A stretch of DNA of 64,000 bases from the NCBI GenBank assembly GCA_963723855.1, contig CAVRSI010000011.1, positions 122,181-186,180 on the forward strand, written 5' to 3'. Numbering within the stretch: the stretch's first letter is position 1; each line of letters begins with the position of its first letter. The notes under the pieces were generated by a model. The model searched no databases. It saw nothing but the letters and a program-made list of their open reading frames with translations, and was not told the DNA's origin. The translations under genes and the position numbers were made by a program. Below, in pieces: positions 1 to 61,357 of this stretch. The DNA comes from an uncultured Actinomycetes bacterium. Lineage in GTDB: Bacteria > Actinomycetota > UBA4738 > HRBIN12.

Positions 1-4172
<4,172 letters not shown>

Positions 4173-4474
4173 AGAGAATCCGAGTCCCCGAGCCCGAGGG
4201 CTTGCCTCGAGCTTTGGGGGGTTCGTTTTCGGTTTGGAGTCGGCCCGACGGGAAAGCACTTCCCCCGGACCGATTTCAGCTGATCCCGCCCGTTGTCCGG
4301 ACGGTTTCAGTACTACCGTCTGCTGCACTCTGAGACACGGCGAACCGCGCCTCCCAGCTGACGGGAAAGCACTGGCTTTTGACACACTGTTCAGTTCTCA
4401 AGGTGCGAGGGGACGCGTGATCCCAGCTGATGACACCAGAAGAGGCACCTCAGGGTGGGGCGCGCCGGATAGGT

Positions 4475-21444: not shown

Positions 21445-21580
21445 AACCGCCACCCCGTCTCCTCCCATCCCGACTTTCACGGTCGGTCCCGGAATCTCAC
21501 CGGATCAACCCTCGCGTGGCTCGCGAGGGGTCGCGGACTTTCACCGCCGGTGGGGAATCGCACCCCGCCCCGGAAACGAG
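21445..21580 (-). ncRNA. FMN riboswitch (RFN element) controlling the ribD-ribE-ribBA-ribH operon
   Basis: The minus strand reads TTCCGGGGCGGGGTGCGATTCCCCACCGGCGGTGAAAGTCCGCGACC...GGTTGATCCGGTGAGATTCCGGGACCGACCGTGAAAGTCGGGATGGGAGGAG. This matches the conserved RFN core blocks. Confidence 0.88.
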
Positions 21581-21642
21581 TTATCTCGAGAACGAGTATA
21601 CGAGCGAGCCCGTCGGCCGGTCCAGGCGTGCGCCGCGGCCCG

Positions 21643-44259: not shown

Positions 44260-45310
44260 TTACGAGCCTCGTCGTCGGTGACGTCGTCGACCACGATCGG
44301 ACGTCCGATGTCTTGCAGGAGGACGAAGCGAACACCACCGCGGATACTTCTTGTCGAGCCTGAAGGCCGAGAGGATGTCGTCGGGGTCCGGAAGCGATCC
44401 GTCCGTCTCCAGCCCGAACGAGGCGAGCAGCCTCCCGGTGCGTGCGGCCAGGCCGTCGGGCGCCACGTCGCGGGCCTCCGCCAGCCGCGCCGCGAACACC
44501 ATGCCGACGGACACGGCCTCGCCGTGGGAACGGCCCGCGAACGCGTCCAGCCGCTCCAACGCGTGCCCGAGCGTGTGTCCGTAGTTGAGGATCAGGCGCC
44601 GACCGTCGTCCCGCTCGTCCTCTGCCACGATCTGGGCCTTCGCGGCGACGCAGCGAGCCACGATCCACTCGAGGGTCGCCGGGTCCCGCGCCAACACCGC
44701 CCCCGGGTCGCGCTCCAGCACGTCCAGGAGCCCACCGTCGAGGATCAGGGCGTACTTCACGACCTCCGACAGGCCGGAGCGGAACTCTCGCTCGCCGAGG
44801 GTTGCCAACGTGTCCACGTCGGCGACGACGAGCCGAGGTTGCGCGAACGCCCCTACGAGGTTCTTGCCCTCCGGAAGGTTGACGGCCGCCTTCCCGCCGA
44901 TCGCGGCGTCGACCTGTGCGAGCAGCGTGGTCGGCACCTGGACGAACGGGACGCCCCGCATGTACGTCGACGCGACGAACCCGGCGAGATCGCCGACCGC
45001 TCCCCCTCCCAGCGCGATCACGGGATCGTCACGATGGGCCTCCTGGGTCGCGAGCTGGTGCAGCAACGTCTCGTACACGCGCAGGGTCTTCGCGTCCTCG
45101 CCCGCGGGAACGACCAAGGGAACCGTGGCGAGGCCCGCCTCGCTCAGGGACGCCGCGAGCGGCTCCAGCCATCGAGCCGACACCGTGCCGTCGGCGACGA
45201 CGAACGCGGTGGAGGCGCCCGGGCAGCTCGGGGAGCAAGGAGCCGACCGACGCGATCGTGCCCGAGCCGACGCAGACGTCGTAGGACCGCCCCGGGATCG
45301 GGACGGTCAC
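44260..45310 (-). CDS. aroB: 3-dehydroquinate synthase; apparent frameshift near 45215 in a CCCGGG run
   Basis: The N-terminal ~32 aa ([31 protein letters not shown]) is in one frame. The remainder ([20 protein letters not shown]...[11 protein letters not shown]...) is in the 44260..45183 frame. Confidence 0.88.
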
Positions 45311-45804
45311 GCGGACCAACGAAGCTCCTCCACGATGGCGTCGGCGACCTCGGCGGGCGAGGCGGTCCCGTCGACCACGTGCGCCGCGAACTCGCGGTAG
45401 AGCGGCTCCCGAGCCGCCAGGAGGCGTTCCAGGTCGCCCTCCGTCCGGATGAGCGGCCGGTCCGCCGCGGGACGCACACGGGACCGGAGATCCTCGAGCG
45501 GCACGTCGAGGAACACCGCCACGCCGGTGTTCCGCAGGGTGATGCGGTTGGCGGGCTCCAGGACGACGCCGCCGCCGCACGCCACCACGGCCGGGTCGTG
45601 CATGCTCGCGTCCGTCAGCGCGGCGGCCTCCCGGGCGCGGAAGGCCGCCTCTCCCTCGGCGGCGAAGATGTCGGCGACGCTCGACCCCGTCTCGCGCTCG
45701 ATCTCCGAGTCGAGGTCGATGAACGGGACGCCCAACCGCCCCGCGAGCTCCTTGCCCACGACCGACTTGCCCGCTCCCGGCATCCCCACCAGGTAGACGA
45801 TCAT
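45307..45804 (-). CDS. aroK: Shikimate kinase
   Basis: About 165 aa starting [22 protein letters not shown]-loop kinase. Confidence 0.9.
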
Positions 45805-46953
45805 GCGAGCGTCTCCACGTACGCGTCCAGGTTCCGCCGCACCTCGGCCAGCGAGTCCCCGCCGAACTTCTCCACGACGGCGTTCGCGAGCTCGAACGCG
45901 ACGACCGCCTCGCCGACGACCCCTCCGGCCGGCACCGCGCACACGTCCGTCCGCTGCTTGATGGCGACCGCGGCCGCGCCCGTGGCCAGGTCCACGGTGG
46001 CGAGCGGACGGGGAACCGTGGAGAACGGCTTCATGGCGGCGCGCAGGCGGATCGGCTGGCCCGTCGACATGCCGCCCTCGATGCCCCCCGCGCGAGCCGT
46101 CTTGCGCCCGATGCGCCCGTCCCGGACGCACGATCTCGTCGTGGGCGTTCGATCCGGTCCGGCCGGCCGACGCGAACCCGTCGCCCACCTCCACGCCCTT
46201 CACCGACTGGATGCTCATCAGGGCCAGCGCGAGCCGCGCGTCGAGCTTGCGGTCGTAGTGCACGTACGAGCCGAGCCCGGGAGGCGCGCCGTACGCCACC
46301 ACCTCGAAGACCCCGCCGACCGTGTCCTTCGACCGCCGGATCCGATCGATCTCGGCGACCATCCGGTCGGCGGTCGCCTCGTCCGTGCAGCGCACCGGCG
46401 ATGCGTCGATCGCGTCCAGGTCGGCCAGGACCGGGACGCGCGACCGCGCCGGGACCTTCACGCTTCCGATCTGCACGACGTGTGAGAGCACGCCGATCCC
46501 GATCTCCGCGAGGAACGCCTTGCAGCAGGCCCCGACGGCGACCCGCGCGGCCGTCTCGCGCGCGCTCGCCCGCTCCAAGACGTTGCGCACGTCGTCGAAG
46601 CCGTACTTCTGCGTCCCGACCAGGTCCGCATGGCCCGGCCGCGGACGGGTGAGGCGCGCATCCGGATCCTCGGCGCCCTCGACGGCCATCAGGTCCGCGT
46701 ACTTCGCCTCGAACTCCACGTTGGGGATCGTGATGGCGATCGGGGAGCCCAGGCTGGTCCCGTGGCGGACGCCCGTCAAGATCTCGAACCGGTCGGCCTC
46801 GAACCGCTGCCGGCCTCCGCGCCCGTAGCCATGGCGGCGCCTCGCGAGCTCCCCGGCGATCTCCTTGGGAACGATCCCCACACCCGCCGGGAGGCCCTCC
46901 ACGATCGCGACCAGCGCTTTGCCGTGCGATTCGCCGGCCGTGAGCATCCGCAA
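45801..46953 (-). CDS. aroC: Chorismate synthase; apparent frameshift near 46112
   Basis: The N-terminal ~270 aa ([25 protein letters not shown]...) is in the 45307..46965 frame. The C-terminus ([24 protein letters not shown]...DAYVETLA) is in the 45801..46070 frame. One base is missing in CCGGG/ACGGG. Confidence 0.9.
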
Positions 46954-47014
46954 CATGGCGTTCATCTTACGGACCGGCCGAGGCGCCGGATGGGCGGGGG
47001 CGTGGTCTTGATGG

Positions 47015-47100: not shown

Positions 47101-47760
47101 TACTTCGACGGGACGAAGCAGAGCGTGAAGGACTGATCTCCGAACAGGAACGTGGCACAGTCGCCGGCGACGTCCCGCAGCTCGAAGTTCCCCCCCGCGA
47201 ACGTGTCCCCTTCAGCCGGGTGGTAGACCGTGCCGTCGACCGACGACCGAGGCGTGCTGCACGCCGTTGGAGGTGTACGTGTCGATCAGCACCACCTCAT
47301 GACCGCCGATGGTCGTCGACGATCCGTTCGTCGGCGGCAGGGTCGGCCCGGTCGGTCCGGGGCCGGTCGTCCCACCGGTGGACCCCGTCGGCCCGGGACC
47401 CGTCGTCCCACCGGTGGACCCAGACGGCCCCGACGGCCCGGGTCCGGTGCCGGTGCCGCCGGTGGACCCTCCGGGCGCCGGGAACTGCGGCGGGATCGAG
47501 AACGGATCGCGCCCGGAGAAGATCGGGCTCGGGGCGGGTCCGCCGCTCTGCGACGGGGACACGCTGCCGGTCGGTCCGGTCGACGGAACGCCGGTGACGC
47601 CGGTCGGACCACCGCTCACCGATGGCCCCACCGAGAGCGGCGGCAAGGCCGATCCGCCGCCCTTCCCCAGCTGACCGAGAAGGAGCAGCGCGAGGACCAG
47701 CACGCCGGCCACGATGCCCCCGATCTTCAGCGCCTTACGGTCGCGTTCGTTGAGAGGCAT
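47101..47760 (-). CDS. PilP-like type IV pilus protein: N-terminal TM helix, Gly/Pro/Ser/Thr-rich tandem-repeat linker and a small C-terminal domain; apparent frameshift near 47225
   Basis: Reads [28 protein letters not shown]..., then a linker ([13 protein letters not shown] x2), then ...[19 protein letters not shown]. The continuation [46 protein letters not shown] (stop about 47101) is in the adjacent frame. Confidence 0.5.
47351..47421 (-). repeat. Two copies of a 36-bp in-frame tandem repeat encoding [12 protein letters not shown] inside the PilP-like gene
   Basis: Near-identical 35/36-nt units at 47351-47385 and 47387-47421. Confidence 0.8.
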
Positions 47761-47763
47761 CCG

Positions 47764-48414
47764 TCAGGCTCCTGGCTTCGTCTCGGCTGCCGGCGAAGGG
47801 CTCGTGGGCGCGGTCGTCGCGGTCGTCGCGCCGGCCGCAGAGGTCGGGCCAGGCGATGAACCCGGGCCAGCGCTCTCGTCGCTCGTGTAGATGTCGACCG
47901 AGGCGGTGAGGGTCAACAGGCTCGAGTTGCTTTCGGAGGGCGAGGGCGAGATCGACACCGCGGTCGTCTTCGCGGCGCGCGGGAGCGTCTCGACCTTGAA
48001 CAGGAACTCCGTGAGCGCGAAGTAGGAACCGGTGGTTGAGATGGCGTTGGCCACGGTGGACAGTCCCGTGGCCGGGTCGAAGATGGGATTGGTCGGCGTG
48101 ATCGTGACGACGTCGACCCCCGACTCCACGGCTGCGTTCTGCATCAGCAGCATGAACCCTTGCTGGTCGACGGTCGGCGGGATCGCTTGCTGGACCTTCC
48201 GGATGGTCTCCCGGTTCGCCGGGGCCTCTGCCTGGGCCGCCTGAAGAGCCGCCAATTGCGCACCCAAGGTCGCCTGCTGACCCTGCGCCTCCGCGAGAGC
48301 GGCGTTCGCATCCTTCACCTGACCCATCTTCGGCAGCACCAGGAAGAACCCCACCAGCACGACCGCGGCGGCGGCGGCGATCCCGGCGAACAGCGGCGCG
48401 CGCTTACCCCCCAC
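47764..48414 (-). CDS. pilO: Type IV pilus assembly protein PilO
   Basis: Has a TM helix (LFAGIAAAAAVVLVGFFLVL), a coiled-coil region and a periplasmic domain. Probable GTG start at about 48414. Confidence 0.7.
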   Translation of the reverse strand: MGGKRAPLFAGIAAAAAVVLVGFFLVLPKMGQVKDANAALAEAQGQQATLGAQLAALQAAQAEAPANRETIRKVQQAIPPTVDQQGFMLLMQNAAVESGVDVVTITPTNPIFDPATGLSTVANAISTTGSYFALTEFLFKVETLPRAAKTTAVSISPSPSESNSSLLTLTASVDIYTSDESAGPGSSPGPTSAAGATTATTAPTSPSPAAETKPGA

Positions 48415-49034
48415 CCTGCACGTCCCCTCGGCCGCGAGGCGTGAGCGCGTCCTCCGAAAGGTCGACCCCGCTGGTGAAGGTGTACAAGCCCGGTATTCGG
48501 ACCGGTCTCGGTGGCGCTCGAGACCCAAGGGTTGACCCATCCCTTAACCGATTCGAGCCTCGTGATCCAGCTCGCTAGGCTTTCGAACCCGTCCGCCGCC
48601 CCGCCGGCGGTGAACGACCCCACGAACGTCGTGGTGGTCGACGCCGCGGCTGTCCCGGTCACCGGCGCCGTGAGCGAGGCACTGAACGAAGAGAGGTACG
48701 CGTCCGATGGGATCGTGCGGGAGAGGTCCATCAGCATCTCCGAGAACGACACTTCGCCGACATACGCCTTCGCGAGCAGCGCCTCCTGCGCGGCGGCCTG
48801 CTCCTGGAGCTGCTGGAACTCCTGCAGCTGACCGATCTGAGCCTGGAGCTGCTGGTTCGTTGCGTTCTGTGCCGCGATGTCGTCGTTGATGCCCGCCAGC
48901 TTCTGGCTCTGCAGGAACCAGAAGGCGATGAGCAGCACGACCACCGCCGCACCGGCCCCGACGATCAGTGTGGTCTGCTGTTTGGTCTTCTGCCGTGCGC
49001 GAAGCTCAGGGGGAAGGAGGTTGACCTGACTCAC
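48404..49034 (-). CDS. pilN: Type IV pilus assembly protein PilN; possible frameshift near its 3' end (about 48460)
   Basis: Starts MSQVNLLPPELRARQKTKQQT with a TM helix. The ORF tail after ...SSATETGPNTG looks out of frame. The adjacent frame gives LYTFTSGVDLSEDAL... ending at TAA 48404, 8 nt before the pilO GTG. Confidence 0.8.
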
Positions 49035-50086
49035 GCGAAATGCCTCCCGGGGATGCCCAGGCCGACGGCCACCGCGAGCACCGGCTCCGCTTCGGCAAGC
49101 GCCTCCTCAGACAGGGACAGCTGCGACTTGGCCCGGCGGAACACGTGGCCGCGCTCGATCGTCGCGGGAACCCGTTCCTGCAGGAGCTCCAGGAAGCCCT
49201 GCAGCTTCGACCCGCCGCCGATCACCAGGACCCGCCCGATCCGGGCCCCACGCGTCTGGGCCGTGTAGAACTCGAGCGAGGACCGAACCTCGTCGACGAA
49301 GTTCTGCGCCCGCTGCATGGCGGCGCGATGGACCTCTTCCAGGTCGGGACCGCCCTCGACGGCCTCGCCGCGCTTCAGACGCTCGGCGACGTCGGCCTCG
49401 ACCCCGAAGTTCCGGGCGATCGCCAACGTGATGTCCCGGCCGCCCGACGGCAGGATCCGGACGAACCGCGTCACGCCCTTCTCGTGGACCAGGATGTTCG
49501 TGACCGTGGCGCCGATATCGACGATGGCCTCTTCGCCACCCTCTTCGTCCTCCATGCCGACCTCCGGCATGCCGACCGCGCGCGCCATGGCGAACGGAAC
49601 CAGGTCGACGCCGATCGGCTCGAGCTTCGCGGCGAGCGCGACATCGACGACCGTGTTCACCATCGCGCGCTGCGCGGCGACGAGGATGAGGCGCAGCATG
49701 CGGCGCCCCTCCTGCTCGAACTCTCCGAGCGGATCGAAGTCCAGGACGGCGTCCTCGACCGGCATGGGGATGAACTCCTGCGCCTGGAACCCGAGCGACG
49801 CTCGGAGCTCCTTCTCGGGGAGCCACGGGAGCGCGATCTCGCGCACCACCACCCGTTGGTTCCCGACACCCATGTAGACCTGCCGGCTCTTGAAGCCTCC
49901 GCGCTGCCAGAGCTCGCGCAACGCCTCGCTGACGACCTCGGGCTGGCGGATCTCGCCCGCCTCGACCGCCCCCTCCGGCAACGGCACCTGCGCCGCCCGA
50001 ACGACCACGGGGGTGTCGCCGCCCTGGAGCTCGGCGGCGCGCACGGCCGTCGCGCCGATATCCAGTCCGACCCGTACCTTCGCCAT
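49031..50086 (-). CDS. pilM: Type IV pilus assembly ATPase-like protein PilM
   Basis: 351 aa starting MAKVRVGLDIGATAVRAAEL, an actin-like fold typical of PilM. Confidence 0.9.
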   Translation of the reverse strand: MAKVRVGLDIGATAVRAAELQGGDTPVVVRAAQVPLPEGAVEAGEIRQPEVVSEALRELWQRGGFKSRQVYMGVGNQRVVVREIALPWLPEKELRASLGFQAQEFIPMPVEDAVLDFDPLGEFEQEGRRMLRLILVAAQRAMVNTVVDVALAAKLEPIGVDLVPFAMARAVGMPEVGMEDEEGGEEAIVDIGATVTNILVHEKGVTRFVRILPSGGRDITLAIARNFGVEADVAERLKRGEAVEGGPDLEEVHRAAMQRAQNFVDEVRSSLEFYTAQTRGARIGRVLVIGGGSKLQGFLELLQERVPATIERGHVFRRAKSQLSLSEEALAEAEPVLAVAVGLGIPGRHFA

Positions 50087-50293
50087 CTACGGACCCTCCG
50101 TCCGAACGGAGCGCTCCTCCAGGAAGCGCTCCAGGTCTGTCTCGCGCAGCCGGTAGTTCTTGCCGACGCGCACGGCCGGAAGCTCGCCGCTCTTGATCAG
50201 CCGGTAGACCGTCATGTTCGAGACCCGCATCGCGTTCGCGACCTCGGACACGGTCAGGAGACCGCCCGGAACGAACGGCTGCGACTCGCTCAC
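50087..50293 (-). CDS. Small MerR/excisionase-family HTH DNA-binding protein (BldC-like, 68 aa)
   Basis: GTG start; reads LTVSEVANAMRVSNMTVYRLIKSGELPAVRVGKNYRLRETDLERFLEE. It sits immediately upstream of pilM and is preceded by the SD GGAGGAGGG. Confidence 0.7.
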   Translation of the reverse strand: MSESQPFVPGGLLTVSEVANAMRVSNMTVYRLIKSGELPAVRVGKNYRLRETDLERFLEERSVRTEGP

Positions 50294-50327
50294 GCGGTCA
50301 CCCTCCTCCGAGTGCTCTTGTTGTCAC

Positions 50328-50383
50328 CTCATGTGGCACTTGTGCCACGTTGGTGCTCATGTGCCTCAAGTGGCACGATGAGG
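50328..50383 (-). promoter_or_regulatory. Operator-like array upstream of the HTH gene: two 23-bp units, each an inverted repeat of GTGGCAC/GTGCCAC half-sites
   Basis: Unit one is CTCAT-GTGGCAC-TT-GTGCCAC (50328-50348, perfect 16-bp palindrome). Unit two is CTCAT-GTGCCTC-AA-GTGGCAC (50355-50376). Confidence 0.6.
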
Positions 50384-50743
50384 CCCCTTACCAAACACCA
50401 GGGAGCAACCGCAGTCAAACATCTCGCACAGGGAAGTTTCCGCAGGTCCGAACGGGTGTTCGGACAAGACCAGCTGCGCTCGGTCCCGAGAGTGGGTCGG
50501 CCTGCTGCCGGATTCATGTAAGAAGGGTGCCGAACCTGTTCAGTTAAGATTGACACCGCCGACGTACGGTGGCAGGAGTGGCGCAGGTCGATGCCACAAC
50601 ATCGCCCAGTTCGACGCCTTCCTCACGCCGAAATGGATAGGTCGGAACCGGACTTAGGACGAAGGGACGGCCGGAAGAGCACCTTTTTGCCGCTGTTGCG
50701 CCCTGGTCGGGTGACATAGATTGACCCAGTGAGGAAGCTTCCG

Positions 50744-51138
50744 ATGACGAAACGACGGTCGATCGCACGGGGGCTCGGGCAAGCAGTCGCCCGTTCGCAA
50801 CGCCCGCCCTTCCCCGATTGCCCGACCTCGAGACCGAGGGACCGGTGCATCAGCTGCTCATGTCCGGGGAGCGCGATGACGGCGGCTGGGGCCTCATCGG
50901 GGCGTTCTGGCTCTCGGTCGACGGCCGGCGCGGCGGGTTCATCGTGTCTCCGGGATTCCTTGGCATGGTAGCGAGATGGTCCGCAGCCTTCGAAGCGCGC
51001 TCGACCGCGGCTGGACCGAGGAGCGGATACTTCTCCTGCTGGGAGGGTCAGGTCGGCACCGTTGGCACCTACATGATCGATCCCGAGACGCCCGCGGAGA
51101 ACCTGGTCGAAGTCGCCCGCCGTGTAGGGGCGCTCTAG
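50744..51138 (+). CDS. Hypothetical small protein (possibly frameshifted between 50729 and 50818 frames)
   Basis: An SD (GTGAGGAAG) precedes the ATG at 50744. The downstream frame 50818..51138 has high GC3 and a plausible sequence (...GWGLIGAFWLSVDGRRGGFIVSPGFLGMVARW...). No recognisable domain. Confidence 0.3.
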
Positions 51139-51469
51139 CGGCGATCGGTGGTCATCCGCTTCCAGGCGCTCCGCTTCCCGCCAGCGTTGCCCTATCGGGC
51201 TCGCGTTCCATGTCCATCGCGATGCGTACTCAGCGATCGGTATCGAGAACACGATCCTTTCCGGTGGGGCAGAACGGGTGTCAGGATGTCGTGGCTGCCT
51301 AGTCCCGTACGCTCGGAGCGGAGCCGCAGAGAGGTAGGCGACCCCTGAGCCCTCGCCACCAGGCGGCGGCGCACGCCTCTCGATGGGTTGCGGCAAGAGG
51401 TCCGGCTGAGGACCCGTGCCGCCGCTCGGGTCACGTTGCCGTCGGCGAGACGTCCTGCGACAACGCGCC

Positions 51470-52288
51470 TTAACCGTCCGCGTTTGCCTCACTCTCACCG
51501 TGGAGGGACGGGTTGCTGATCAGTTCGGCGATGGCTAGCCCAAGCAGAACCAGTCGTCGTCGGGGAGGATCCCGCCTGCTGCGACGGCGCCGGCGCTTGC
51601 TGGCCCAAGATCTCAAGACAGATGCATCGGCTTCGCCAAGGCTTGGCGCATTCACCAAGGTGCCTTGAACAACCACCCCGATCGTGCAGGTGCCGCCGAC
51701 GCTGTAATAGAAATCCCCATTGAGTGCGGTGTTGATCGCCCCTGTCACGTTGAAATCGCCGAACACGCTCCTGTAACAAGTAGGTGCTCCGGCTGGTGGG
51801 GTGATATTGGCCGTCGTCGTAGCAGTCGTCGATGTGAGCAGGTATCTGCCCGCGTTCGCGTCCAGGGTGATGCCGGTAGCTGTCACCGAGATGCCTGTTC
51901 CGGGGCCGATGGACGCGAAGGTCGCGCTTGCGGCCGAGCAGGTCACGACGTCGGGCGAGATCACCCCGGTCAGCGAGCAGAGGGTCATCGTGGCCGCATT
52001 CGCGCCGTCGTAGACCTTGTCGGCCGCAGTCACGGTTGCGGTCACCGGCCGATACAGCGTCCCGCCTTTGGCCCCATAGCCTATGCAGAGCGCCTCACTT
52101 GGAAACGTTGTTCCGTCCGCGCGGACGAGCGTTTGCCAGCCGCCCTTCTGACAGAGTTTCGCATTCGTGGAGTTGCTGCCAGCGAAAGCGATTCCGACGT
52201 TGACGACGAGCATCACAACCACAAGGCCGAACGTCGCCACGATCGAGACCATGCGTCGAGCCCTTCGGCGCTCACGTCTCGCCCTCAT
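51470..52288 (-). CDS. Secreted/membrane-anchored protein with an MBG/YDG-type adhesin-repeat signature, in a lower-GC island
   Basis: Has an Arg-rich N-terminus plus hydrophobic segment (MVSIVATFGLVVVMLVVNVGIAFA) and a Cys-containing region. It carries a KVYDG...LTGVISPDVVTCSAASATFAS...GRYLLTSTTATTTANIT block typical of MBG/YDG repeats. Local GC is about 55-60%. The C-terminal ~60 aa may be out of frame. Confidence 0.5.
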   Translation of the reverse strand: MRARRERRRARRMVSIVATFGLVVVMLVVNVGIAFAGSNSTNAKLCQKGGWQTLVRADGTTFPSEALCIGYGAKGGTLYRPVTATVTAADKVYDGANAATMTLCSLTGVISPDVVTCSAASATFASIGPGTGISVTATGITLDANAGRYLLTSTTATTTANITPPAGAPTCYRSVFGDFNVTGAINTALNGDFYYSVGGTCTIGVVVQGTLVNAPSLGEADASVLRSWASKRRRRRSRRDPPRRRLVLLGLAIAELISNPSLHGESEANADG

Positions 52289-52656
52289 GATTCACCCTTC
52301 TTCATGGTGCCCGAACCGTCATGACGTCTCGCCCGATCCAGGGACTTGACAACCCCCCTTCCGTCCTACTATCGACCGGAGACAGCGCCTCGCCCCATCG
52401 GTCTTCGGTCGGCGAATCCGGGCCACAAGGCGTAGCACTCGCCAATCAGTCAGCGTGAACACCTAAGCAACTGAGGGCTTGCATGACTCGGAAGACATCA
52501 CTCGGGATGAAGCAAGCCGGGTCCATCGGAGGATTGGGACCTTATCGGCTCCTTGTGTCGCCGCCTTCACCGGTCTCCTCTGTCGTCGCCTTCACGTGGT
52601 AAACGGCCTCGACTCCACGGAAGGAACTTGGCCGATCGGCCCGAGCGGGGCAAGCC

Positions 52657-58172: not shown

Positions 58173-58808
58173 CTACTGGGTCAGGGTTTCGGCGTCTGCG
58201 GCATCCTGCTTGAGGGCTCGGCGCTCGTCCGTCCATGAATACCTGGGAACGGGTAGGACGCGGGCTACCAGCCGGCGGCGGCGGGGCTGTCGCGGCGGTC
58301 GCGGTTCGCCGCTGCCCACGTCGCCGTGCAGTTCGGCGGCCGTCGTCTTCCCGTACTTGGTCCCGGTCGTGCCGTCGAGGATCACGAAGCACGTGCTGCG
58401 ACGCCGACAGCCGAGCCGCGGAGAACTGCGTCGCCGTCGAGTGGACGCTGATCGACCCGATCCCGCTCCCGCTGGCGCACGCCGGGAGCGACGGGGTTCG
58501 TCGCCGCCGATGCCTGCCGTTGGCACGTAACACATGTTCGGGATGATCGTGACGAGCCCGTGCCGGACTCGTCGGCGGATGTGAACGTGGCGTTGTCCGT
58601 GTACAGGATCCGCGCCGCCAGGACCGCGTTCCGCAGGTCCGATCTGGGCGGCGCGGTCCTGGAACCTCGCCCGCACGCCGAGGAACGTCGGCAGGCCCAT
58701 CACGATCAGGATGGCGAGGATCATCACGACGACCATCAACTCGATGAGCGTGAAGCCGTCCTCGTCCTCGTCGCAAGCCGTCTGCCAGGTTCGGAGCACC
58801 GGTGCCAC
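58173..58808 (-). CDS. pilA: Type IVa major pilin paralog 2; multiple apparent frameshifts
   Basis: GTG start with SD GAGAGGAG; reads MAPVLRTWQTACDEDEDG|FTLIELMVVVMILAILIVMGLPTFLGVRARFQDRAAQ. The continuations SDLRNAVLAARILYTDNATF... and ...IIPNMCYVPTAG... are in other frames. The 3' end is uncertain. Confidence 0.7.
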   Translation of the reverse strand: MAPVLRTWQTACDEDEDGFTLIELMVVVMILAILIVMGLPTFLGVRARFQDRAAQIGPAERGPGGADPVHGQRHVHIRRRVRHGLVTIIPNMCYVPTAGIGGDEPRRSRRAPAGAGSGRSASTRRRRSSPRLGCRRRSTCFVILDGTTGTKYGKTTAAELHGDVGSGEPRPPRQPRRRRLVARVLPVPRYSWTDERRALKQDAADAETLTQ

Positions 58809-58982: not shown

Positions 58983-60199
58983 TTACTGGATCAGCTTGAT
59001 GATGTTGAACATCGGCATGTAGAGCGCGATGACCGCGGCTCCCACGGCTCCTCCGATGATCGCGATCAGGAGCGGCTCGATCAGCGACGTCAGGGCGTCG
59101 ACCGACGCCTCGACCTCCTGGTCGTAGAACTTCGCGACCTTCTCGAGCATGGTGTCGACCTGGCCGGTCTCCTCACCCACCGCGAGCATCTGCACGACCA
59201 TCGGCGGGAACACGGCGTGCCTCGCGAGCGGCTTGGCGATCGACTCACCTTCGCGGACGCTCGCCTGCACGTCGACGACCGCCTTCGACATCACCTTGTT
59301 GTTCACGGTGTCCGCGACGATGTCCAGCGCCTGCAGGATCGGGAACGCCCGAGCGCAGCAGCATCGCCGGCCGTGCTGGAGAAGCGGGACAGCGCGGTCT
59401 TGTGGAAGAGCGTGCCGAAGATCGGGATCTTCAGCTTGAGCGCGTCGAGCGTCGCCCGTCCGGCTTCCGTCTTCTTGTACCGCCTGAAGAGGAACGACGA
59501 ACACGAACGTGAGCATGATGAGGAGTCACCAGTACTTCTTCACCGCGTCCGAGGCCATGAGCAGGACCCGGGTCGGCAGCGGCAGCGTGCCGCCGAGCTG
59601 CGTGTAGATGGTCTTGAACTGCGGCACGACGAACAGCAGCATCGCCGACATGATCAGGACGACCAGCGCGACGACCGCGACCGGGTACGTCATGGCCGAC
59701 TTGATCTTCTGCCGCAGGTGCACCTCGCGCTCGAGCACGTCGGCCAGCCGGAGCAGCACGTCGTCCAACATCCCGCCCGTCTCGCCCGACTTGACCATGG
59801 CGATGTAGAGGTCGTTGAACGCCTTGGGGAACTTCGCCATGGCCACGGACAGGCTCGAGCCCTGCTCGACGTCGTTGCGGACGAGCGTCAGGGTCTTCGC
59901 GAGCTCCTTGTTGCTGACCTGGTCGGACAGGATCGACAGCGCGCGCAGGATCGGCAGGCCGGAGTTGACCATGGTGGCGAACTGCCGGGAGAAGATCGCG
60001 ACTTCCTTGAGCTTGATCTTCGCCGGCCTGATGTTGATCTCGAGGTTGAGGCCCTTCTTCTCCTTGCCGACCTCGAGCGGGGTGTACCCCATCTCGCGGA
60101 GGCGCTCGAGGACCAGGCGCTCGTTGTCGGCGACGAGGGTCCCCGTGACGAGGTTCCCGGACTTGTCCCGGACCTTGTACTGCGTAGGACTCAGACATA
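58983..60199 (-). CDS. pilC: Type IV pilus inner-membrane platform protein PilC (GspF family); at least three apparent frameshifts (about 60185, 59530, 59400)
   Basis: The ATG overlaps the pilT stop. The first GspF repeat (...FSRQFATMVNSGLPILRAL...) is in the 59526..60482 frame. The second repeat (...FPILQALDIVADTVNN...LIEPLLIAIIGGAVGAAVIALYMPMFNIIKLIQ) is in the 58983..59516 frame. The central TM segment is in a third frame. Confidence 0.85.
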
Positions 60200-61357
60200 G
60201 TCGCCTCCCGACATCATCGAGCCCATCGCCATGGCTCCGCCGCCGTCCATCGGAGGCGGAGCGGAGGCGCCGCCGACCAGCCGCTGGAGCTCCTCGGGGT
60301 CGTGGCAGCGCTCGAACGCCACCTGCTGGTTGATGCGGCCGGCCTTCACGTGCGCGGCGATCGACATGTCCATCGTCTGCATCCCGTACCGGCCGCCGGC
60401 CTGCATCGCGGAGTAGATCTGGTGGACCTTGCCCTCGCGGATCAGGTTGCGGATGGCCGGGGTCGTGACCAGCACCTCGCACGCCGCGACGCGTCCCTGG
60501 CCGTCGGTCGTCTGGAGCAGCTGCTGCGTGACGACACCCTGAAGCGTGGTCGCCAGCTGCACCCGCACCTGCTGCTGCTGGTGCGGTGGGAACACGTCGA
60601 TGATGCGGTCGATCGTCTGCGGCGCGTCCTGCGTGTGCAGGGTCGCGAAGACCAGGTGGCCGGTCTCGGCCGCCGTGATCGCGGTCGAGATCGTCTCGAG
60701 GTCTCGCATCTCACCGACCAGGATGACGTCGGGGTCCTGACGCAGGACGTGCTTCAGGGCCTGGCCGAACCCGTGCGTGTCGGCGCCGACCTCGCGCTGG
60801 TTCACGATGCACTTCTTGTGCTTGTGCAGGAACTCGATCGGGTCCTCGACGGTCATGATGTGGCCGGCCCGCTCCTCGTTGACCACGTCCACCATGCCGG
60901 CGAGCGTGGTCGACTTGCCCGAACCCGTCGGGCCCGTCACCACGACGAACCCACGCGGGAACCGGGCGAGGTCGGCGACCACGCCCGGGAGGCCGAGGTC
61001 TTCGAGCTTCTTGATCTCGAACGGGATGAGCCGGAACGCCGCGCCGAGCGCGTCGCGCTGCTGGTAGACGTTCACACGGAAGCGCGCCTGACCCGGCAGG
61101 GAGTAGGACATGTCCAGCTCCAGCTCCTGCTCGAACCGCTCGCGGAGCTTCTGCGGCAGGATCGCGTAGATCATGCCCTGAAGCGCCCGGGGCGTCAGCG
61201 GAGGATACTTCTCCAGCCGCTCCAGCTCGCCGTTCACACGCACGACGGGCGGGGTCCCCACCGTGAGGTGGAGGTCCGAACCGCCAACCTCCAAGAGCGC
61301 CGTGAGCAGCTCCGGGATCGGGATATTCACGTCGTCTTGATCTGCTTGCATCACCAT
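60191..61357 (-). CDS. pilT: Twitching motility ATPase PilT
   Basis: 388 aa with Walker A GPTGSGKST, the PilT AIRNLIRE motif, and an intact frame. Confidence 0.95.
   Translation of the reverse strand: MVMQADQDDVNIPIPELLTALLEVGGSDLHLTVGTPPVVRVNGELERLEKYPPLTPRALQGMIYAILPQKLRERFEQELELDMSYSLPGQARFRVNVYQQRDALGAAFRLIPFEIKKLEDLGLPGVVADLARFPRGFVVVTGPTGSGKSTTLAGMVDVVNEERAGHIMTVEDPIEFLHKHKKCIVNQREVGADTHGFGQALKHVLRQDPDVILVGEMRDLETISTAITAAETGHLVFATLHTQDAPQTIDRIIDVFPPHQQQQVRVQLATTLQGVVTQQLLQTTDGQGRVAACEVLVTTPAIRNLIREGKVHQIYSAMQAGGRYGMQTMDMSIAAHVKAGRINQQVAFERCHDPEELQRLVGGASAPPPMDGGGAMAMGSMMSGGDYV

What the first reader, a model, noticed from the sequence alone, without database searches (positions are those of the whole stretch)
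50087..50390. BldC-like 68-aa HTH regulator gene with an elaborate double-palindrome operator, placed at the head of pilMNO
The small MerR/excisionase-type HTH gene sits directly upstream of pilM and is probably co-transcribed with it. Upstream of it, in a 56-bp stretch, are two related 23-bp units. Each is made of inverted GTGGCAC/GTGCCAC half-sites preceded by CTCAT; the first is a perfect 16-bp palindrome. This looks like an autoregulatory operator for a dimeric HTH protein and suggests dedicated transcriptional control of pilus assembly genes. In Streptomyces, BldC-type proteins are developmental regulators.
Basis: seen in the sequence. Interest (0 to 1): 0.65.

Follow-up and report, generated by a model that had tools for sequence, protein, structure and literature searches.

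The report
BldC-like regulator with 9-bp repeat array
A tiny DNA-binding protein gene fused to the front of the pilus-assembly genes pilMNO is preceded by a conserved row of 9-base repeats. This looks like a self-regulating switch of the BldC type (many protein copies lining up head-to-tail on DNA), not a pair of palindromic operators.

Summary
The 68-aa gene (50087-50293, minus strand) is real. It encodes an HTH_17/excisionase-family winged helix-turn-helix protein, and its stop codon abuts the pilM ATG. Its closest solved relative, in sequence and in predicted fold, is BldC, but it fails NCBI's BldC family cut-off.

The upstream repeat is also real. It is better described as about 6-7 phased 9-10-bp units (CATGTGNCA, 50322-50385) than as two palindromic operators. 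In 80 related species (pilD-HTH-pilMNO synteny in 79), the same position holds 3-10 direct repeats, SATGTKRCA. Of neighbouring units, 54% are exactly 9 bp apart, and the repeats are strongly strand-biased. The palindromic look appears only in the clade where unit position 1 is C.

The arrays overlap a conserved TTGACN-17-TWNNNT promoter-like element and fill the ~97-nt leader. None occurs elsewhere in 702 kb of flanks or in the 64-kb window.

Each BldC protomer binds a 9-bp direct repeat, head-to-tail. Its interface residues (E17, R23, G44 here) and its TG-reading arginine (R31 here) are invariant in this family.

Best reading: a cooperative, head-to-tail autoregulator of the HTH-pilMNO operon. 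A wider pilus regulon is not supported. DNA binding is untested.

The parts
50087..50293 (-). 68-aa stand-alone winged-HTH gene (HTH_17 / excisionase family, BldC-like fold). GTG start, TAG stop abutting the pilM ATG.
   Evidence: ORF. Pfam HTH_17 63.9 bits and TIGR01764 68.5 bits. More than 1100 homologues, many over 80% identical. AF2 model at pLDDT 80; best PDB matches are BldC chains.
50301..50309 (-). Shine-Dalgarno GGAGGAGGG, 7 nt upstream of the GTG start.
   Evidence: Read from the sequence. Conserved as GGAGG / GGGAG in relatives.
50322..50385 (.). Array of about 6-7 phased 9-10-bp units. On the + strand: CATGTGGCA 50330, CTTGTGCCA 50339, CGTTGGTGCT 50348, CATGTGCCT 50358, CAAGTGGCA 50367, GATGAGGCC 50377. 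On the - strand: GAGGTGACA 50330-50322. Orientation is ambiguous in this clade.
   Evidence: The homologous position in 71 of 80 related loci holds an array.
50390..50395 (-). -10-like hexamer TTTGGT (TTTCGT in all other near-clade loci), embedded in the repeat-like unit GGTGTTTGG (50391-50399).
   Evidence: Invariant block in alignment A2 and in conspecific strains. TTGACN-16..18-TWNNNT is present in 73 of 77 loci. The assignment as a promoter is an inference; the E. coli-consensus scanner found nothing.
50413..50418 (-). -35-like hexamer TTGACT, embedded in the repeat-like unit GATGTTTGA (50415-50423, PWM score 8.7), 27 nt (3 x 9) from the unit over the -10.
50435..50443 (-). Conserved box GCGGAAACT (GCCGAAAGT in distant relatives), 12-20 nt upstream of the -35-like hexamer.
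   Evidence: visual conservation across both clades. Function unknown.
50447..50464 (.). Inverted repeat TCCGAAC-GGGT-GTTCGGA at the distal edge of the conserved promoter module.
   Evidence: Conserved in near-clade loci. It may be a second operator or the pilD terminator stem.
49031..50086 (-). pilM, translationally coupled to the HTH gene.
   Evidence: PilM_2 165.7 bits, TIGR01175 193.5 bits. Immediately downstream of the HTH gene in 79 of 80 loci. Gap of -1 or 0 nt in 64 of 78 loci.
48315..49034 (-). pilN-like gene (overlaps the pilM stop). The last ~55 codons may be out of frame.
   Evidence: Weak PilN/GspM matches. Conserved synteny.
47764..48540 (-). pilO (ORF as listed; the true start is probably internal).
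   Evidence: PF04350 32.9 bits. Synteny.
47212..47760 (-). Pro/Gly-rich membrane protein, the conserved last gene of the HTH-pilMNO unit.
   Evidence: ORF. Homologue downstream of pilO in many loci.

Best explanation
The 68-aa protein is a stand-alone winged-HTH of the BldC structural type. I propose that several copies bind cooperatively, head-to-tail, one per 9-bp unit (consensus SATGTKRCA; CATGTGNCA in this organism). The units overlap the -35 hexamer and spacer of the gene's own promoter and fill the transcribed leader down to the ribosome-binding site. The resulting nucleoprotein filament would feed back, most probably negatively, on transcription of the HTH-pilM-pilN-pilO-(Pro/Gly-rich protein) operon. 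That would set the dose of the pilus assembly platform independently of the upstream pilB-pilT-pilC-pilin-pilD genes.

Shown: the gene, its fold class, its coupling to pilM, the family-wide 9-bp array and its exclusive position.

Inferred: that this protein is what binds the array, that binding is head-to-tail, the promoter assignment, and the sign of regulation.
For: 1. Fold and sequence.
- The best solved-structure match by sequence is BldC (6amk/6ama, E about 1e-3).
- The AF2 model (pLDDT 80) superposes on BldC-DNA complex chains at 1.0 A rmsd over 49 columns, with TM 0.80-0.87 normalised to the target and 39-41% identity.
- Next come RacA, Pukovnik Xis and RdfS. Per the literature read (PMC5859096, PMC12266134), BldC and Xis assemble on direct repeats, whereas RacA binds as a symmetric dimer.

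2. BldC mechanism. Each BldC protomer binds a 9-bp direct repeat, head-to-tail (PMC5859096).

3. Residues conserved in all or nearly all of 108 family sequences.
- Head-tail interface counterparts: E16->E17, R22->R23, V23->V24, G44->G44, L11->L12; F21->M22 and W31->L32 stay hydrophobic.
- The YpG-reading Arg30->R31.
- The invariant core of every unit is a TG step (T 1.00, G 0.99).

4. Array statistics.
- 439 units in 78 loci, about 5-8 per locus against 0.97 in shuffles.
- 195 of 361 successive gaps are exactly 9 nt, against 1.1% in shuffles.
- Autocorrelation peaks at lags 9, 18 and 27.
- Seed-free 6-mers are enriched 20-35 fold, with strong strand bias.

5. Exclusivity.
- All 85 arrays scoring at least 24 in 702 kb lie within 450 nt upstream of the first HTH gene; none lies elsewhere.
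- This holds under cross-validation: 36/38, 38/38 and 28/28 loci.

6. Position. TTGACN-16..18-TWNNNT is present in 73 of 77 loci. Units lie over the -35 hexamer and spacer, and from +27 to +90 of a leader with a median length of 97 nt.

7. Operon structure. pilD-HTH-pilM-N-O synteny holds in 79 of 80 species. The stop and start codons abut or overlap in 64 of 78 loci.

8. Co-conservation. The recognition helix (SNMTVYRLIK) and the unit core ATGTG are both invariant across clades, while flanking unit positions drift.
Against: - No binding data of any kind exist. The link between this protein and the array rests on adjacency and on analogy with BldC.
- The protein fails the curated BldC family threshold (25.8 bits against 77).
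- It lacks BldC's His46 (Asn46 here) and Lys26 (Met27 here). Its wing is one residue shorter.
- The units are not AT-rich.
- In this window and its closest relatives the array is quasi-palindromic and scores better on the strand opposite to the gene. Here, symmetric binding cannot be told from head-to-tail binding.
- The -10-like hexamer (TTTGGT / TTTCGT) is a poor match to TANNNT, and the consensus promoter scan found nothing.
- A test for covariation between variable protein residues (37, 41, 46) and unit position 1 gave only weak trends confounded by phylogeny.
- The sign of regulation is a guess.
Confidence: 0.6

Rival explanations
1. The GTGGCAC-N2-GTGCCAC elements are two palindromic operators. 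Each is bound by a symmetric dimer of the HTH protein, giving classical repressor-type autoregulation.
For: In this window and its near clade the units are self-complementary: 7+2+7 at 50333-50348 and 6/7+2+7 at 50361-50376. The array scores equally well or better on the opposite strand. RacA, a structural neighbour, binds as a symmetric dimer (PMC5859096).
Against: The protein has no dimerisation domain (68 aa, a single wHTH). Half-site centres would be only 9 bp apart, which is the spacing of BldC direct repeats. In 48 more distant loci with an identical recognition helix, the units are GATGTGGCA in one orientation and not palindromic. The palindromes follow automatically from C at unit position 1. 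The two 'operators' in the window have opposite arm order.
Confidence: 0.15
2. The array is bound by some other factor, for example a response regulator or nucleoid-associated protein encoded elsewhere. The small HTH protein then does something else, such as regulating distant genes or partnering PilM.
For: Nothing here demonstrates which protein binds the array. Additional conserved elements upstream of the -35 hexamer show that other inputs are likely. These are the inverted repeat at 50447-50464, the GCGGAAACT box, and an AT-rich palindrome AATTACAT-CT-ATGTAATT in distant relatives.
Against: Arrays were found only directly upstream of the HTH gene in 702 kb. The 9-bp period matches the only structurally characterised relative. 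Response regulators that bind direct repeats usually use 10-11-bp spacing (general knowledge). The protein's DNA-reading residues and the repeat core are jointly invariant.
Confidence: 0.13
3. The repeats act in the mRNA leader rather than in DNA. They could form a structured attenuator or thermometer, provide sites for an RNA-binding protein, or encode an upstream peptide. The 9-nt period equals three codons, and in L065 the array reads as a Met-rich 23-codon uORF that ends at the start codon.
For: Most units lie downstream of the predicted -10 hexamer, inside the leader, and run into the SD and start codon. Some leaders fold better than shuffles (z = -3.5, -3.1, -2.4).
Against: Folding z-scores are inconsistent across the family (+2.1, +1.0, -0.5; -1.4 for the window). 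There is no Rfam match. Units also sit over the -35 hexamer and spacer, and upstream of the promoter, where they are not transcribed. Many units contain in-frame TGA, so a peptide is not conserved.
Confidence: 0.07
4. The gene is a remnant excisionase / recombination directionality factor, and the repeats are its recombination-site arm sites. This would relate to the 2.2-kb strain-specific insertion next to it.
For: TIGR01764 'excise' is the best-scoring model. Xis and RdfS are structural neighbours and also form filaments on direct repeats. A 2.2-kb insertion ends 70 nt from the promoter.
Against: The pilD-HTH-pilM arrangement is fixed in 79 of 80 species and there is no integrase nearby. The gene is translationally coupled to pilM. 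The insertion is absent from all other strains, while the array is identical in them.
Confidence: 0.03

Closest known systems
BldC of Streptomyces (PDB 6AMA, 6AMK; Schumacher et al. 2018, PMC5859096)
   Same: Same size (68 aa) and the same single-domain winged HTH, with no coiled coil or effector domain. It is the best sequence and fold match. The Glu-Arg salt bridge, the Gly44 of the head-tail interface and the YpG-reading Arg are conserved. The candidate target consists of variable numbers of 9-bp direct repeats, as for BldC.
   Different: The protein is below the NCBIfam BldC cut-off (25.8 against 77 bits). The wing is one residue shorter, with His46->Asn, Arg47->Tyr and Lys26->Met. The repeat core is ATGTG...CA, not AATT....C. 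It is hard-wired to one operon (its own, with pilMNO) rather than standing alone with a pleiotropic developmental regulon. Arrays are longer (up to about 10 units) and cover the promoter plus the whole leader. Binding has not been shown.
Mycobacteriophage D29 Gp36 (PMC12266134)
   Same: A small MerR-like / BldC-like wHTH. It binds GC-containing direct repeats and represses the genes downstream. It acts on very few sites.
   Different: It is a phage protein. Its repeats carry a GCGGC motif and are spaced 15-19 nt apart, not 9. No sequence relationship was tested here.
Excisionases / recombination directionality factors (Pukovnik Xis 4J2N, RdfS 8DGL, lambda Xis)
   Same: The same HTH_17 / TIGR01764 domain. 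They are structural neighbours (TM 0.63-0.66). They form cooperative head-to-tail filaments on direct repeats.
   Different: There is no integrase or mobile element here. The chromosomal synteny inside a type IV pilus cluster is fixed.
Classical MerR-family activators (CueR, BmrR, CadR)
   Same: The N-terminal wHTH fold (CadR, HiNmlR at TM about 0.57-0.63).
   Different: There is no dimerisation coiled coil and no effector domain. The promoter spacer is 17 nt, not 19. The sites are repeats, not a single dyad in the spacer.

Membership tests
BldC family (structural family of Schumacher et al. 2018) | The protein consists only of a MerR-like winged HTH (~68 aa), with no coiled-coil or effector domain. 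| tested here: met
   68 aa. The AF2 model has the topology b-a-a-b-b-a. Pfam finds only HTH_17, at residues 12-62.
BldC family (structural family of Schumacher et al. 2018) | Fold superposes on BldC. | tested here: met
   In Foldseek against the PDB, the top 7 hits are BldC chains. Rmsd is 1.0 A over 49 columns, TM is 0.66 (query) and 0.80-0.87 (target), and identity is 39-41%.
BldC family (structural family of Schumacher et al. 2018) | Head-to-tail interface residues: the Glu16-Arg22 salt bridge, Gly44, and the hydrophobic cluster (Leu11, Phe21, Val23, Trp31, Ile40, Leu43). | tested here: met
   By alignment the counterparts are E17, R23, G44, L12, M22, V24, L32, V41 and V43. E17, R23, G44, M22 and L32 are invariant or nearly so in 108 sequences. 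Thr42 has no counterpart because of a one-residue deletion. This is an inference from alignment, not from a complex structure.
BldC family (structural family of Schumacher et al. 2018) | The recognition-helix arginine that makes the YpG contact (Arg30). | tested here: met
   R31 is invariant in 108 sequences. Every repeat unit has an invariant TG.
BldC family (structural family of Schumacher et al. 2018) | The wing His46 reads a narrowed AT-rich (AATT) minor groove. | tested here: not met
   His46 is replaced by Asn46 (Gly or Ser in a few sequences), and Arg47 by Tyr47. The units contain only an AT dinucleotide, not AATT.
BldC family (structural family of Schumacher et al. 2018) | Binds variable numbers of 9-bp direct repeats as a cooperative multimer. 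| tested here: inconclusive
   Arrays of 3-10 units with a 9-bp period lie directly upstream of the gene in 71 of 80 loci. Binding itself cannot be tested with these tools.
NCBIfam NF033787 HTH_BldC (sequence subfamily, i.e. BldC orthologues) | Score at or above the curated cut-off of 77 bits. | tested here: not met
   25.8 bits. The protein is not a BldC orthologue.
Excisionase / RDF (TIGR01764, HTH_17) | Domain model match. | tested here: met
   TIGR01764 at 68.5 bits (cut-off 28.8). PF12728 at 63.9 bits (cut-off 27)..
Excisionase / RDF (TIGR01764, HTH_17) | Association with an integrase and a mobile element, with a role in excision. | tested here: not met
   No integrase was found among the ORFs of the pilus cluster and its flanks that were scanned against Pfam. 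pilD-HTH-pilM synteny is fixed in 79 of 80 species.
Classical MerR regulators | A C-terminal coiled-coil dimerisation helix plus an effector-binding domain, and a dyad operator in a 19-bp promoter spacer. | tested here: not met
   The protein ends after the wHTH. PF00376 MerR scores 17.2 bits, below its 28.2 cut-off. The spacer is 17 nt.

The most novel reading that the evidence does not exclude
The regulator may be more than an autorepressor. It is made in fixed ratio with PilM through stop/start-coupled translation. In a third of species it is duplicated in tandem. Its operator array runs from the -35 hexamer to the start codon. The protein could therefore report the assembly state of the pilus platform: free protein polymerises on the array, while protein captured by PilM or the platform does not. 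This would be a feedback circuit of the FlgM/sigma-28 type for type IV pili in monoderm Actinomycetota. It would also be the first physiological role for a BldC-like protein outside Streptomyces.
Probability: 0.08. Interest if true: 0.75.

Novelty: new member of a known kind. Interest (0 to 1): 0.48.

Why it matters
BldC-like single-domain HTH proteins are widespread, yet the BldC structure paper (PMC5859096, 2018) described the roles of BldC homologues as unknown. This family offers a clean, testable case. It has one protein, one operon and one conserved 9-bp array whose unit number varies naturally from 3 to 10. It also has a clade in which the array has become symmetric.

It also identifies a dedicated, internally promoted regulatory module for the PilMNO assembly platform in type IV pilus clusters of uncultured soil Actinomycetota. 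In the literature I searched I found no dedicated regulator described for type IV pilus assembly genes in Actinomycetota.

For the scan itself there is a practical lesson. A 'palindromic operator' seen in a single genome can be the local appearance of a direct-repeat array.

Tried and rejected
1. Further GTGGCAC-N2-GTGCCAC sites in the window. The only other hit with up to 2 mismatches is at 58793-58808 (GGAGCACCGGTGCCAC). With 0.52 expected and 13% of shuffles giving at least 2 hits, it is not significant.

2. Array scan of the whole window. Nothing else exceeds the null.

3. Metagenome-wide pattern scan for five phased TGTK units. This was wasted. The regulon question therefore remains open beyond +/-5 kb of the gene.

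4. Known RNA families. None is present in 50200-51600 at E up to 5, apart from two chance-level hits.

5. Leader RNA structure. Z-scores range from -3.5 to +2.1, so no common structure was found.

6. E. coli-type promoter and terminator scan of 49900-51600. No hits. The promoter assignment rests on conservation only.

7. Covariation of protein residues 37, 41 and 46 with unit position 1. Only a weak trend was found (0.45 against 0.28 C), and it follows the phylogeny. It is not used as evidence.

8. Literature searches for an HTH/excisionase gene in actinobacterial pil clusters, and for BldC homologues linked to pili. Nothing relevant was found.

9. An analysis bug. In some searches the best HSP was chosen by comparing unlike quantities. 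That accident exposed the second HTH paralogue. All statistics quoted come from the corrected runs.
Full report
**What is at the coordinates**

On the minus strand there is a 68-codon ORF at 50087..50293 (GTG start, TAG stop). A GGAGGAGGG ribosome-binding site lies at 50301-50309. The stop codon is immediately followed by the ATG of a 351-aa PilM (49031..50086; PF11104 at 165.7 bits, TIGR01175 at 193.5 bits). After pilM come pilN- and pilO-like genes and a Pro/Gly-rich membrane protein.

The small protein matches HTH_17 (63.9 bits) and TIGR01764, the 'excisionase family DNA-binding protein' model (68.5 bits). Against the curated BldC subfamily model it reaches only 25.8 bits, with a cut-off of 77.

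The whole neighbourhood is one minus-strand type IV pilus cluster with no secretin: pilB, pilT, pilC, several N-methyl pilin-like genes, pilD, the HTH gene, pilMNO, then aroC/aroK. So the HTH gene heads an internal pilMNO unit of a monoderm-type pilus cluster.

**The repeat in the window**

- The first unit contains GTGGCAC-TT-GTGCCAC (50333-50348). This is a 7+2+7 inverted repeat, not a perfect 16-bp palindrome.
- The second unit, GTGCCTC-AA-GTGGCAC, has the arms in the opposite order and one mismatch.
- GTGSCAC alone is not enriched in the 64 kb (8 found, 10 expected). The signal is the clustering.

**Relatives change the picture**

The protein has more than 1100 homologues, many over 80% identical, all from uncultured Actinomycetota. 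A scan of one genome per species returned 80 loci. In 79 of them the order is pilD, a ~200-300-nt gap, HTH, pilM, pilN, pilO. The stop of the last HTH gene and the pilM start abut or overlap by one base in 64 of 78 loci. Twenty-seven loci carry two tandem HTH paralogues before pilM.

The region between pilD and the HTH gene is not alignable across the whole set. Nevertheless every clade has rows of short repeats there.

*Seed-free statistics*
- Autocorrelation peaks at lags 9, 18 and 27: 0.354, 0.343 and 0.316. Other multiples of three give about 0.29-0.30.
- Hexamers such as GATGTG, ATGTGG, TGTGAC and CAGATG are enriched 19-35 fold.
- They are strongly strand-biased: 82 against 6, 66 against 10, 64 against 6, and 60 against 2 for their reverse complements.

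*The refined 9-mer model, S-A-T-G-T-K-R-C-A*
- It finds 439 units in 78 loci: 4.6 per single-HTH locus and 7.8 per double-HTH locus, against 0.97 in shuffles.
- 195 of 361 successive gaps are exactly 9 nt; another 22 are 18 nt and 11 are 27 nt. In shuffles 1.1% of gaps are 9 nt.

*Exclusivity*
- All 85 arrays scoring at least 24 in the 702 kb held lie within 450 nt upstream of the first HTH gene, in 71 of 80 loci. None lies elsewhere.
- This is not circular. Models trained on half of the loci place the best array of each ~10-kb test locus upstream of the HTH gene in 36/38 and 38/38 cases.
- A model trained only on the distant clade does so in 28/28 nearer loci. In the 64-kb window it picks 50330 (30.0, against 18.9 for the next best).
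- Within the window nothing else exceeds the simulated null (33.0 against a null maximum of 25.1).

**Why it looks palindromic here**

The unit consensus differs by clade:
- CA-CATGTGgCA-CA in the clade of the window;
- GATGTGnCA in the middle clade;
- ca-GATGTGgca-ga in the distant clade (48 loci).

With C at unit position 1, head-to-tail copies of CATGTGNCA are their own reverse complement except for the weakly specified central base. They create CACATGTG and TGTGNCACA dyads.

Accordingly, only the window and about a dozen near relatives score as well or better on the opposite strand. In the window the best register is on the plus strand:
- CATGTGGCA at 50330
- CTTGTGCCA at 50339
- CGTTGGTGCT at 50348
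- CATGTGCCT at 50358
- CAAGTGGCA at 50367
- GATGAGGCC at 50377

The 28-nt higher-order repeat is 9+9+10. The protein's recognition helix (SNMTVYRLIK) is identical in all clades. The simplest assumption is therefore one binding mode throughout, and only the direct-repeat reading fits all clades.

**Position relative to the promoter (inferred)**

A TTGACN-16..18-T(A/T)NNNT element is present in 73 of 77 loci, ending a median of 97 nt before the start codon.
- In the window it is TTGACT (50418-50413), a 17-nt spacer, then TTTGGT (50395-50390).
- The block GRTGTTTGACT-N13-CTGRTGTTTCGT is invariant in the near clade. It is identical in five conspecific strains, except that only the window has TTTGGT instead of TTTCGT.
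- Both hexamers sit inside unit-like 9-mers 27 nt (3 x 9) apart.
- Units cluster over the -35 hexamer and spacer, and from about +27 to +90 of the leader. They run into the Shine-Dalgarno sequence and, in some loci, the start codon.
- The E. coli-consensus scanner finds no promoter. The promoter is therefore an inference from conservation.

**Comparison with BldC**

By sequence, the best solved relatives are the two BldC-DNA complexes (E about 1e-3). An AlphaFold model (pLDDT 80) matches BldC chains best: rmsd 1.0 A over 49 columns, TM 0.80-0.87 on the target, 39-41% identity. RacA, Pukovnik Xis and RdfS follow.

The BldC paper (PMC5859096) reports the following:
- Each protomer binds a 9-bp direct repeat, AATTXXXX(C), and protomers stack head-to-tail.
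- The interface uses Phe21/Val23/Trp31 against Leu11/Ile40/Thr42/Leu43/Gly44, plus a Glu16-Arg22 salt bridge.
- Arg30 reads a TG (YpG) step, and His46 in the wing reads the AT-rich minor groove.
- E16R, G44E, R30A and H46E impair binding.

Mapped onto this family:
- E17, R23, V24, G44, L12, R31 and R48 are conserved, mostly invariant in 108 sequences.
- F21 and W31 are replaced by Met and Leu, so they stay hydrophobic.
- Lys26 becomes Met, His46 becomes Asn and Arg47 becomes Tyr. The wing is one residue shorter.

The oligomerisation surface and the TG-reading arginine are thus kept, while the AT-tract reader is not. This fits units with an invariant TG and no AATT.

The protein is therefore BldC-like in architecture and probably in mechanism. 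It is not a BldC orthologue, and nothing links it to development.

**Mechanism proposed**

Several protomers assemble head-to-tail on the 9-bp units across the promoter and leader of the protein's own operon. They feed back on its transcription. Repression is the likelier sign, given the overlap with the -35 hexamer and spacer and the roadblock position. This would set PilM/N/O dosage from an internal promoter.

Confidence is about 0.6. The weak links are the identity of the binding protein, the binding geometry in this quasi-symmetric clade, the promoter assignment and the sign of regulation.

**Rivals**

1. Symmetric dimers on palindromes (0.15). This fits this clade only.
2. Another factor binds the array (0.13). 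It cannot be excluded. Extra conserved elements upstream of the -35 hexamer show that other inputs exist.
3. An RNA-level leader element (0.07). Folding z-scores are inconsistent (-3.5 to +2.1; -1.4 for the window). There is no Rfam family. Units also occur in untranscribed DNA.
4. An excisionase remnant (0.03). This is contradicted by the fixed synteny and the absence of an integrase.

**Regulon**

None is found in the window. None is found within 5 kb either side of the gene in 80 species, a range that covers pilD, the minor pilins and pilMNO. My attempt to look more widely in metagenomes failed through a badly chosen pattern. Whole-genome scans of related complete genomes remain to be done.

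**Novelty and score**

I found no description of this gene family or its array. It is a new member of a known kind: BldC-type single-domain wHTH proteins that act on direct repeats. It has a new repeat sequence, a new and very tight genomic association, and unusually long arrays.

It is a neat, experimentally tractable system rather than a surprise in kind. Interest is about 0.48.

Noticed in passing
window 50465-52656: A 2.2-kb strain-specific insertion lies between pilD and the HTH promoter. It carries a secreted YDG-domain protein gene (51470-52288, minus strand) and about 1 kb (50465-51470) with no frame-specific GC3 signal. In L001 and in four contigs encoding the identical HTH protein (L201-L204), pilD ends about 170-210 nt from the HTH start. 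DNA upstream of pilD is also unalignable between strains, so the pilin region is variable.
   Followed up: partly
window 50447-50464 and 50435-50443; L025-L080 about 50 nt upstream of the -35 hexamer: There are further conserved elements upstream of the -35-like hexamer. In the window's clade there is an inverted repeat, TCCGAAC-N4-GTTCGGA. In the distant clade, within GC-rich genomes, there is a striking AT-rich palindrome, AATTACAT-CT-ATGTAATT; each arm fits BldC's AATTXXXX(C) unit. Both are followed by a shared GCCGAAAGT / GCGGAAACT box. They may be sites for a second regulator.
   Followed up: partly
L025, L037, L042-L045, L047, L049-L054, L057-L059, L062, L064, L065, L067, L069, L071, L073-L075, L079, L080: Twenty-seven of 80 species have two tandem paralogues of the HTH gene (63 and ~70 aa; e.g. 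L065 5001-5192 and 5193-5429) in front of pilM. These loci have the longest arrays (mean 7.8 units against 4.6).
   Followed up: partly
L065 4929-5003: Because the period is three codons, the array here reads as an in-frame, Met-rich 23-codon upstream ORF (MGKMGWMRRMLKLWNMSQMWEMC*). Its TAG abuts the HTH start codon. It is not conserved in other clades, where many units contain TGA.
   Followed up: no
window 50390-50395: The window has TTTGGT where every other near-clade locus, including conspecific strains, has the invariant TTTCGT. This is a single C-to-G change in the putative -10 hexamer of this strain.
   Followed up: no
window 58983-60200 (minus strand): pilC is interrupted. There is an in-frame stop at 59526-59528, followed by ~50 codons that read as PilC only in another frame, so a pair of frameshifts. 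T2SSF domains lie on both sides. This is either long-read consensus error or a pilC pseudogene. The last ~55 codons of the pilN ORF (48315-48480) also look out of frame.
   Followed up: partly
window 1-4175 and 21453-21581: On the minus strand there is an rRNA operon: 23S cut at the window edge (1-2400) and 16S (2647-4175). There is also an FMN riboswitch (108 bits).
   Followed up: no
window 45307-46965 (minus strand): A single 552-aa ORF carries both chorismate synthase (residues 5-294) and shikimate kinase (396-548) domains. It is either an aroC-aroK fusion or two genes merged by a missed stop or frameshift.
   Followed up: no
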